From Escherichia coli (GTDB lineage: Bacteria; Pseudomonadota; Gammaproteobacteria; Enterobacterales; Enterobacteriaceae), in assembly GCF_002854065.1 (NCBI RefSeq), contig NZ_CP024147.1: DNA of 64,000 nt. One strand, written 5' to 3'. The notes below the pieces were generated by a model, which worked only from the letters and a program-made list of their open reading frames with translations, was not told the origin of the DNA and did no database searches. The translations under genes and the position numbers were made by a program. Of this stretch, positions 28,987 through 29,033 are shown piece by piece (within the stretch, counting starts at the first letter, position 1; each line of letters begins with the position of its first letter).

Positions 28987-29033
28987 ATGCGACAACGTGC
29001 CGGGTAAAAGCCTTCTCCCCGGCGCGCCCTCTT

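What the first reader, a model, noticed from the sequence alone, without database searches (positions are those of the whole stretch)
28987..29033. L-rhamnonate utilisation genes (rhmRDTA) and ypaA absent between rpnB and yfaY
Only 47 bp separate the rpnB stop from the yfaY stop, whereas in K-12 as I recall it this junction holds ypaA and the four-gene rhm locus (about 4.5 kb). The rpnB here is a single 317-aa ORF, so K-12 yfaD plus ypaA may be a split version of the same gene. Whether this is the ancestral state or a clean deletion cannot be decided from one genome.
Basis: established knowledge. Interest (0 to 1): 0.3.

Follow-up and report, generated by a model that had tools for sequence, protein, structure and literature searches.

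The report
Rare clean loss of rhamnonate genes
This E. coli carries a rare version of a known variable spot on the chromosome in which the four L-rhamnonate-utilisation genes are completely missing, so two neighbouring genes end tail-to-tail 47 bases apart; this is ordinary gene-content variation, not a new system.

Summary
A 317-aa Rpn-family gene (28033-28986, +) and yfaY (29034-30245, -) are separated by 47 bp. K-12 has ypaA plus yfaU/V/rhmD/yfaX (rhmATDR) there, 4,627 bp. The gene is rpnE (yfaD), not rpnB.

No rhm homologue lies elsewhere in the window. None of the nine complete E. coli genomes with this joint has an rhmD or rhmA match anywhere.

The loss is derived, not ancestral. E. albertii, a divergent E. 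coli-like lineage and 70% of E. coli have rpnE-rhm-yfaY. E. fergusonii, three other Escherichia species and about 23% of E. coli carry independent deletions that leave rhm remnants.

This allele is rare (9 of 5,426 complete genomes). It is not a one-step deletion of K-12- or O157-like sequence: 97 bp at the joint (28965-29061) have no counterpart there. It also sits in flanks that differ by up to 1.7%. I therefore read it as an old or imported rhm-null allele spread by recombination.

ypaA is not a split-off piece of the gene. It is a known tandem duplicate of the small RpnE C-terminal antitoxin module. Here there is one module with six four-residue repeats.

Interest is low.

The parts
26650..27840 (+). 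glpC, the conserved left anchor of the variable interval
   Evidence: tblastn 100% to K-12 GlpC; same position in the annotated strains XJ34 and CUWW06
28033..28986 (+). rpnE (yfaD), full-length 317-aa form (RpnE_L). The N-terminal 243 aa are identical to O157:H7 RpnE and differ from K-12 at 3 residues
   Evidence: PF04754 E 5e-88; NF007418 715 bits; K-12 b2244 is annotated rpnE; residue comparison
28762..28986 (+). In-frame internal ORF for the small C-terminal protein RpnE_S (74 aa). It is preceded by AAGGAGAG, and start and ribosome-binding site are identical to those of K-12 rpnE_S and ypaA
   Evidence: Alignment with K-12; translation; internal starts of rpn genes were shown experimentally in PMC10400941. 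Translation in this strain is inferred
28804..28875 (+). Six tandem 12-nt (four-residue) repeats [25 protein letters not shown]-12 RpnE has 2, YpaA 3 and O157 4. Other carriers of the same joint have 4 (309-aa RpnE)
   Evidence: the repeat finder family D1/D2; protein comparison; allele alignment
28965..29061 (.). 97-bp stretch with no counterpart in K-12-, O157- or EC0880B-type loci. It holds the last 7 codons plus stop of rpnE (...APLSLQ* instead of ...AANNH*), the spacer, and the last 9 codons of yfaY
   Evidence: Similarity to rhm-containing loci stops at 28962-28964 and resumes at 29062. The stretch is found in only 9 of 5,426 complete genomes plus strain TR01, and has no match in plasmids or phages
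28987..29033 (.). 47-bp spacer between the two stop codons (the finding as given)
28996..29026 (.). G+C-rich hairpin: 9-bp stem 28996-29004 / 29018-29026 with a 13-nt loop. It folds on both strands. It is a possible shared transcript-end structure but has no U-tract
   Evidence: RNA fold -21.9 and -26.0 kcal/mol, z -3.5 and -2.9; not called by the terminator scan
29034..30245 (-). yfaY (CinA-family NMN-deamidase-related), 403-aa allele with the tail ...ESLMLSPQGA* instead of the ...ESMTLSV* of K-12 (400 aa)
   Evidence: NF002978 806 bits; tails tabulated across species; the related tail ...ESLRLSPQ* is seen only in strain 06-00048

Best explanation
This is a rare, naturally occurring rhm-null allele of the variable glpC-yfaY interval of E. 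coli. The whole L-rhamnonate cassette (rhmA aldolase, rhmT transporter, rhmD dehydratase, rhmR regulator) and the ypaA duplicate are absent. As a result rpnE and yfaY end tail-to-tail across 47 bp that hold a single hairpin.

The loss is derived, because the ancestor of Escherichia had rpnE-rhm-yfaY (shown by outgroups).

It is not a fresh one-step deletion of a K-12- or O157-like locus. The 97 bp at the joint, including both gene tails, are a different sequence. The only similarities I found for those 97 bp are weak ones, to rhm-less junctions in other lineages.

I infer that the allele is either an old deletion whose joint has since diverged, or a short patch imported by homologous recombination from an unsampled rhm-less relative. 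I also infer that it has since moved between E. coli lineages by recombination, because its carriers have unrelated flanks.

The expected consequence, inferred and not tested, is loss of the ability to take up and split L-rhamnonate into pyruvate and L-lactaldehyde.

rpnE itself is intact. It keeps the internal start for the small antitoxin-like RpnE_S protein, here with six four-residue repeats. This fits the published hypervariability of that module.
For: Absence:
- No RhmA, RhmD or RhmR match in the window, and only a 24% MFS-level similarity of RhmT to glpT.
- All nine complete genomes with this joint have one matching place only and no plasmid match.

Derived state:
- rpnE-rhmATDR-yfaY is intact in E. 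albertii, in a divergent 'E. coli' lineage (L033), in C. braakii and in C. sedlakii.
- The cassette sits at the same site in Klebsiella, Raoultella and many Citrobacter.
- 3,821 of 5,426 E. coli genomes hold at least 80% of the K-12 cassette.
- About 1,240 E. coli genomes have a simple 3.86-kb deletion that leaves 462 bp of rhmA.
- E. fergusonii, Escherichia sp. E1V33 and E. whittamii share another deletion, and Escherichia sp. MOD1 has three internal deletions.
- All of these keep K-12-type gene tails.

Not a one-step deletion:
- Similarity to K-12, O157 and EC0880B stops at 28962-28964 and resumes at 29062.
- The 97 bp have no short match inside the K-12 locus and none elsewhere in E. coli, plasmids or phages.

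Old or imported allele:
- The rpnE 3' flank plus hairpin aligns with the rpnE-yfaY spacer of Salmonella diarizonae (1 of 1000 shuffles reach the score; 1 of 500).
- The yfaY tail resembles that of the rhm-less strain 06-00048.

Spread:
- The joint is 99-100% identical in carriers whose glp flank differs by up to 115 of 6,739 bases (1.7%).
- Over 24 kb, only 4 of the 9 carriers are close to the window.
- The exact RpnE and YfaY proteins occur on 300 and 285 contigs.
Against: - No donor lineage was found. None of 80 species representatives, nor E. fergusonii, carries the 97 bp. Two metagenome scans found nothing.
- The Salmonella similarity covers only about 55 nt at roughly 70% identity. The similarity of the spacer to 06-00048 is not significant.
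- The rpnE part just left of the patch (28866-28964) is a mosaic of known Escherichia RpnE_S alleles, not foreign DNA.
- O157:H7 strain TR01 carries both variant gene tails with an rhm cassette between them. Taken at face value this would suggest a deletion within an E. coli haplotype. However, its cassette is 100% identical over 5.7 kb to ordinary O157, including an IS1203 at the same site, and both flanking hairpins are broken exactly at the joins. It therefore looks like a mosaic or a chimeric assembly, not an ancestor.
- The L-rhamnonate phenotype is inferred only.
Confidence: 0.7

Rival explanations
1. A recent one-step (or two-step) deletion inside E. coli. An O157-like rhm-containing haplotype that already carried the variant rpnE and yfaY tails (as TR01 does) lost the cassette by illegitimate recombination between the two flanking terminator hairpins, leaving one hybrid hairpin.
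For: - The rpnE N-terminal 243 residues are identical to O157, and yfaY from 29062 on is typical E. coli.
- TR01 shares 28965-28996 and 29024-29061, so only 27 bp (28997-29023) are exclusive to rhm-less genomes.
- The window hairpin begins with GTGCCGG, as the K-12 yfaY terminator hairpin does.
- Clean loss that keeps one hairpin is also seen in Citrobacter.
Against: - The TR01 cassette with its IS1203 is clonal O157 (0 differences in 5.7 kb), while its flanks are imported. It is therefore not the pre-deletion haplotype.
- Both of its hairpins are truncated at the joins.
- No other rhm-containing carrier appeared among 5,426 complete genomes or the 47 contigs read, and a pattern built to catch such genomes found none in metagenomes.
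- The joint lies in flanks that differ by up to 1.7%, which is unexpected for a recent event.
Confidence: 0.2
2. Ancestral state: this lineage never had the rhm cassette between rpnE and yfaY, and the cassette was inserted in other E. coli.
For: - Many Enterobacteriaceae have glpC directly next to yfaY (Enterobacter, Kluyvera, Leclercia and others).
- S. diarizonae and several Citrobacter have rpnE directly next to yfaY.
- The window spacer aligns with that of S. diarizonae.
Against: - The cassette is at the same site and in the same orientation in E. albertii, L033, Citrobacter, Klebsiella and Raoultella.
- Every other rhm-less Escherichia allele still holds rhm fragments.
- The window's rpnE body and yfaY are ordinary E. 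coli alleles.
- Persistence of an rhm-less allele since before the genus arose would require a very long-lived polymorphism.
Confidence: 0.07
3. Artefact: an assembly collapse or mis-join in the window's source genome, or the rhm genes moved elsewhere in the genome.
For: None found.
Against: - The same joint is in 9 independently assembled complete genomes and 45 further contigs.
- There is no second rhmD or rhmA place in any of the nine genomes and no match on any plasmid.
- Both ORFs are intact and end in stop codons.
Confidence: 0.01

Closest known systems
E. coli K-12 MG1655 glpC-rpnE-ypaA-yfaU-yfaV-rhmD-yfaX-yfaY interval (b2243-b2249)
   Same: Same flanking genes in the same order and orientation. 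The rpnE body differs at 3 of 243 residues. yfaY is 98.5% identical from 29062 on.
   Different: K-12 has 4,627 bp between the two stops, against 47 bp here. K-12 rpnE is 299 aa with 2 repeats and is followed by the duplicate module ypaA. The K-12 tails are ...PNCH*/...AANNH* and ...ESMTLSV*.
Common E. coli rhm-deletion allele (e.g. EC0880B; about 1,240 of 5,426 complete genomes)
   Same: rhmT, rhmD and rhmR are lost between the same two genes, so the L-rhamnonate pathway should likewise be lost.
   Different: That allele is a plain 3.86-kb deletion. It keeps 462 bp of rhmA, and K-12-type sequence runs right up to both sides of the joint. The window allele keeps nothing and has 97 bp of different sequence.
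rpnE-yfaY tail-to-tail junctions of Citrobacter youngae, C. portucalensis, Citrobacter sp. wls619 and Salmonella diarizonae
   Same: rpnE and yfaY are convergent, 50-90 bp apart, with one hairpin and no rhm remnant. The S. diarizonae spacer aligns with the window spacer.
   Different: Their rpnE genes are only 64-68% identical in protein, and the C-terminal coding part is 67% identical in DNA. The Citrobacter hairpin (GGGAAGG...CCTTCCC) is unrelated.
Rpn_L / Rpn_S gene-within-gene toxin-antitoxin, antiphage proteins (Zhong et al. 2023, PMC10400941; Kingston et al. 2017, PMC5350276)
   Same: PF04754 nuclease-type N-terminal domain. Internal ribosome-binding site and ATG for a small C-terminal protein. 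The number of four-residue repeats varies between strains. The downstream duplicate (ypaA/rpnE_Ss) is present in some strains and absent in others, as the paper describes.
   Different: Nothing here shows activity, and K-12 RpnE was inactive in the recombination, toxicity and SOS assays. The frameshift-like tail ...APLSLQ* is not described there.

Membership tests
RpnE orthologue of the Rpn (YhgA-like, PF04754) family | N-terminal YhgA-like PD-(D/E)XK domain | tested here: met
   PF04754 E 5.4e-88, residues 8-209
RpnE orthologue of the Rpn (YhgA-like, PF04754) family | Scores above the curated cut-off of the model NCBI uses for this orthologue, and lies directly downstream of glpC as K-12 b2244 does | tested here: met
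   NF007418 715 bits against a cut-off of 583; the RpnA model scores 422, below its cut-off; synteny
RpnE orthologue of the Rpn (YhgA-like, PF04754) family | Internal in-frame start with ribosome-binding site for a small Rpn_S protein, carrying four-residue repeats | tested here: met
   Sequence around ATG 28762 is identical to K-12 rpnE_S and ypaA; six 12-nt repeats. Actual translation was not testable
RpnE orthologue of the Rpn (YhgA-like, PF04754) family | DNA endonuclease, toxicity or antiphage activity | not testable with these tools
   K-12 RpnE was inactive in published assays (PMC5350276)
L-rhamnonate utilisation locus rhmRDTA (yfaXWVU) | RhmD dehydratase and RhmA aldolase genes present | tested here: not met
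   No tblastn match in the window; no megablast match in any of the nine genomes with this joint
L-rhamnonate utilisation locus rhmRDTA (yfaXWVU) | RhmT transporter and RhmR regulator genes present | tested here: not met
   In the window there is only a 24% MFS-level similarity of RhmT to glpT and no RhmR match. The count of genomes with no match to any part of the K-12 locus (15) equals 9 + 1 + 5 rhm-less genomes
Simple one-step deletion allele | Sequence on both sides of the joint continues the undeleted allele up to the breakpoint, with no foreign bases | tested here: not met
   97 bp (28965-29061) cannot be aligned with K-12, O157 or EC0880B. The common E. coli deletion does meet this feature
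IS- or transposon-mediated deletion | IS copy, IS end or target duplication at the joint | tested here: not met
   No IS ORF between 27840 and 30245; only short repeats consistent with chance
Intrinsic (Rho-independent) terminator | G+C-rich stem-loop | tested here: met
   9-bp stem, z -3.5 and -2.9 on the two strands
Intrinsic (Rho-independent) terminator | Short loop followed by a U-tract | tested here: not met
   13-nt loop and no T-run on either strand; not reported by the scan
REP/BIME repeated extragenic palindrome | Many dispersed copies in the genome | tested here: not met
   No other copy in the window and none outside this locus in 5,426 E. coli genomes
YfaY (CinA-family NMN-deamidase-related protein) | Equivalog model above cut-off over the full length | tested here: met
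   NF002978 806 bits against a cut-off of 496, residues 1-396. Only the last ~9 residues differ

The most novel reading that the evidence does not exclude
The rpnE-flanked interval could be a site of homology-independent cassette exchange. Under this reading the rhm-null joint arose, and in O157:H7 TR01 an rhm cassette was put back, by illegitimate joins at the terminator hairpins next to a recombination-promoting nuclease gene. This would link Rpn proteins to gain and loss of the neighbouring operon. Alternatively, the rhm-null joint could be a very old allele shared with Salmonella diarizonae and kept in E. coli by selection.
Probability: 0.08. Interest if true: 0.45.

Novelty: new member of a known kind. 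Interest (0 to 1): 0.15.

Why it matters
The main value is for annotation and metabolic modelling. Strains with this allele (and, for a different reason, about a quarter of E. coli) should be scored as unable to use L-rhamnonate, a compound whose role for E. coli is itself unclear (EcoCyc lists it as a dead-end metabolite, PMC3781023). The locus also gives a tidy example of one operon being lost at least five separate times within a single genus, beside a hypervariable rpn gene. It adds a six-repeat, single-module RpnE allele to the catalogue. It does not change how any system is understood.

Tried and rejected
- Origin of the 97 bp inside the K-12 locus or elsewhere in the window: short-word BLAST gave only chance 9-14-mers.
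- Origin in plasmids or phages: no match.
- Origin in another rpn paralogue or elsewhere in E. coli: sensitive BLAST against 5,426 genomes hit only this locus.
- Donor species: none of the 80 YfaY loci from species representatives and not E. fergusonii carry the patch. RpnE homologue clusters show no ...PLSLQ tail.
- Metagenome scan for a hypothetical rhm-containing parent and for the yfaY tail: zero hits in both.
- Similarity of the spacer to that of strain 06-00048: not significant (88 of 500 and 356 of 1000 shuffles reach the score).
- REP element idea: no other copies.
- Known RNA families in 27500-30500: none.
- Direct repeats between the rpnE start and the yfaY end (11-mer TCAACAACCTC): consistent with chance and present in K-12 too, so dropped.
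- TR01 as the pre-deletion ancestor: rejected, because its cassette is clonal O157 and its hairpins are broken.
- Literature on rhm variation among E. coli lineages: nothing in the held library. Rakus et al. 2008 is not held.

Full report
OBSERVATION

The window has a 317-aa ORF at 28033-28986 (+) and a 403-aa ORF at 29034-30245 (-). Their stop codons are 47 bp apart. The first ORF is an Rpn/YhgA-family protein (PF04754, E 5e-88; NCBIfam equivalog NF007418, 715 bits against a cut-off of 583). The second is YfaY (NF002978, 806 bits against a cut-off of 496).

In K-12 MG1655 the same interval reads rpnE (b2244, 299 aa), ypaA (pseudogene), yfaU (rhmA), yfaV (rhmT), rhmD, yfaX (rhmR), yfaY. There are 4,627 bp between the rpnE and yfaY stops. 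Only the gene name was wrong: yfaD is rpnE, and rpnB is yfcI (PMC5350276).

ARE THE rhm GENES REALLY GONE?

tblastn with the four K-12 proteins finds nothing in the 64-kb window except a 24% MFS-level similarity of RhmT to glpT.

I then built a query from the window's rpnE-yfaY block plus K-12 rhmD and rhmA on the opposite strand. The nine complete E. coli genomes that carry this joint ranked first. Each has a single matching place and no plasmid match, so none has rhmD or rhmA elsewhere. Genomes with the common partial deletion show the expected second place.

The counts agree. Fifteen of 5,426 genomes have no match to any part of the K-12 cassette. That equals 9 window-type genomes, plus 1 genome with a fimbrial operon in this place, plus 5 genomes that lack the whole region.

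The window is 100% identical over 24 kb to strain CUWW06 (wastewater, Thailand) and 99.9% identical to strain 100416. XJ34 and XJ6-3 are 98.9% identical, and every other genome is at or below 98.7%.

HOW COMMON IS EACH STATE?

- 3,821 of 5,426 complete genomes (70%) hold at least 80% of the K-12 cassette.
- About 1,240 (23%) have rpnE and yfaY within a few hundred bases of each other and keep only the 3' 462 bp of rhmA. This is a plain 3.86-kb deletion, with K-12-type sequence running up to the joint on both sides.
- The window's joint is in 9 genomes (0.17%).
- In the larger collection of assemblies, the exact RpnE and YfaY proteins of the window occur on 300 and 285 contigs, all named E. coli.
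- Of the 47 contigs read that encode this RpnE or the closely related 403-aa YfaY variant (the TR01 / group-2 protein used as query), 45 have the tail-to-tail arrangement. The other two reads are the same record, O157:H7 strain TR01.

ANCESTRAL OR DERIVED?

I fetched the yfaY neighbourhood from 80 species representatives and mapped K-12 proteins onto them. Four states exist:

- glpC directly next to yfaY: Enterobacter, Kluyvera, Leclercia, Lelliottia, Buttiauxella and others.
- glpC-rhmATDR-yfaY: the Klebsiella oxytoca group, Raoultella, Phytobacter and many Citrobacter.
- glpC-rpnE-rhmATDR-yfaY: E. albertii, a divergent 'E. coli' lineage (L033), C. braakii and C. sedlakii.
- glpC-rpnE-yfaY: C. 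youngae, C. portucalensis, Citrobacter sp. wls619 and Salmonella diarizonae.

Within Escherichia, every lineage either has the cassette or has wreckage of it:

- Escherichia sp. MOD1-EC7003 has three internal deletions.
- Escherichia sp. E1V33, E. whittamii and E. fergusonii share one deletion with the same breakpoints (K-12 locus about 6240-10063).
- All of them keep K-12-type tails on rpnE (...AANNH*) and yfaY (...ESM[T/V]LSV*).

The genus ancestor therefore had rpnE-rhm-yfaY. The cassette has been lost at least five separate times, and the window's state is a loss.

WHAT KIND OF LOSS?

It is not a one-step deletion of any sampled rhm-containing sequence. Similarity to K-12, O157 and EC0880B ends at 28962-28964 and resumes at 29062. 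The 97 bp in between hold the last codons of rpnE (...[10 protein letters not shown]), the spacer, and the last nine codons of yfaY (...ESLMLSPQGA*). They have no match inside the K-12 locus, none elsewhere in E. coli, and none in plasmids or phages.

Just left of the patch, 28866-28964 differs by 10-16 of 99 bases from every other Escherichia allele. However, it is visibly a mosaic of known RpnE_S variants, so it is not foreign DNA.

The RpnE tail looks like the usual ...ANNH* ending with a short out-of-frame deletion, so that translation runs past the old stop (CCATTAA is still there). This last point is inference.

Two weak similarities suggest that the patch is an allele with a history and not random filler:

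- The rpnE 3' flank plus hairpin aligns with the rpnE-yfaY spacer of S. diarizonae (1 of 500 and 1 of 1000 shuffles reach the score).
- The yfaY tail resembles that of strain 06-00048 (...ESLRLSPQ*), another rhm-less genome.

The similarity of the spacer to that of 06-00048 is not significant.

SPREAD

The joint itself is 99-100% identical in all carriers. Their flanks are not. Relative to the window, the glp region differs by 1 to 115 of about 6,740 bases, the rpnE body by 0-16 of 768, and yfaY by 0-13 of 1,184. This is as much as K-12 or O157 differ from the window. The carriers fall into at least two groups, one with a 317-aa RpnE (four complete genomes) and one with a 309-aa RpnE (five complete genomes). 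I read this as an allele that is old enough, or mobile enough through homologous recombination, to have been uncoupled from its flanks.

THE ODD RECORD TR01

O157:H7 strain TR01 has the window-type rpnE tail (to 28996) and yfaY tail (from 29024) with an rhm cassette between them. Its cassette, including an IS1203 in rhmT, is identical at every one of 5.7 kb to ordinary O157 strain AR-0429. Its flanks carry window-type and private SNPs. At both joins a terminator hairpin is cut in half.

It is therefore a mosaic, either natural or a chimeric consensus of two strains. It is not the pre-deletion haplotype. I could not decide between the two possibilities.

ypaA AND THE 317-aa rpnE

In K-12 the stretch from the internal ribosome-binding site and ATG (AAAAGGAGAGATTAATG...) to the end of rpnE is present twice in tandem, and the second copy is ypaA. 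Zhong et al. showed that rpn genes encode a small C-terminal protein (Rpn_S) from this internal start, and that this protein blocks the long toxic form. They showed that ypaA is a second expressed copy (rpnE_Ss), that such copies are gained and lost, and that the number of four-residue repeats varies between strains and sets the pairing specificity (PMC10400941).

The window has one module. Its RpnE_S would be 74 aa with six repeats, [24 protein letters not shown] (28804-28875). K-12 RpnE has two repeats, YpaA three and O157 four. Outgroups also have one module, so the K-12 duplication is the derived state. K-12 yfaD plus ypaA is thus a duplication, not a split gene.

THE SPACER

A 9-bp G+C-rich stem (28996-29004 / 29018-29026) with a 13-nt loop folds on both strands (z -3.5 and -2.9). 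There is no U-tract, and the terminator scan does not call it. No Rfam family matches in 27500-30500. A role as a shared transcript-end structure for the two convergent genes is plausible but untested.

VERDICT

This is a real, rare, derived rhm-null allele at a known variable site beside a hypervariable rpn gene. The expected phenotype is inability to use L-rhamnonate, whose role in E. coli is itself unclear (PMC3781023). The enzyme assignments are from Rakus et al. 2008 and Rea et al. 2008, which I cite from established knowledge and as listed in PMC3229490. This is ordinary gene-content variation. The only unresolved points are where the 97-bp joint came from and what TR01 is.

Noticed in passing
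window 32290-33057 (target duplication 32281-32289 and 33058-33066): A 768-bp IS1 (insA 32345-32620, insB 32539-33042) with a 9-bp target duplication GAGCGACAT. It sits in the divergent ais-arnB promoter region, about 57 bp upstream of the ais start and about 230 bp upstream of arnB. It is absent from the otherwise identical strain CUWW06 and could alter expression of the arn (lipid A aminoarabinose, polymyxin resistance) operon.
   Followed up: partly
L004 (NZ_CP033605.1, O157:H7 TR01) 8001-8067 and 13777-13817: The rhm cassette with IS1203 is 100% identical to ordinary O157 over 5.7 kb, but both flanks are window-type right up to the edges of the 27 bp that only rhm-less genomes have, and both terminator hairpins are truncated at the joins. 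This is either a natural illegitimate mosaic or a chimeric assembly.
   Followed up: partly
L005 (NZ_CP015229.1, E. coli 06-00048) 2992-7943: rpnE and the rhm cassette are replaced by a four-gene chaperone-usher fimbrial operon between glpC and yfaY. This is unique among 5,426 complete genomes. The flanks are 4-7% diverged from the window.
   Followed up: partly
L108 (named E. fergusonii by the source), L007, L008: E. fergusonii, Escherichia sp. E1V33 and E. whittamii share an rhm deletion with the same breakpoints (K-12 locus about 6240-10063). It leaves about 200 bp of rhmA and a 115-aa rhmR stub. This is either a shared ancestral deletion or one passed between species.
   Followed up: partly
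proteins P0005, P0006, P0010, P0011: Some RpnE-like cluster representatives are chimeras. One end is identical to RpnE and the other end comes from a different rpn paralogue, which suggests recombination between rpn genes.
   Followed up: no
window 27852-27881: A 14-bp near-perfect inverted repeat (ATGCCCGGTAAGCA / TGGTTACCGGGCAT) lies just after the glpC stop. It is probably the glpABC terminator.
   Followed up: no
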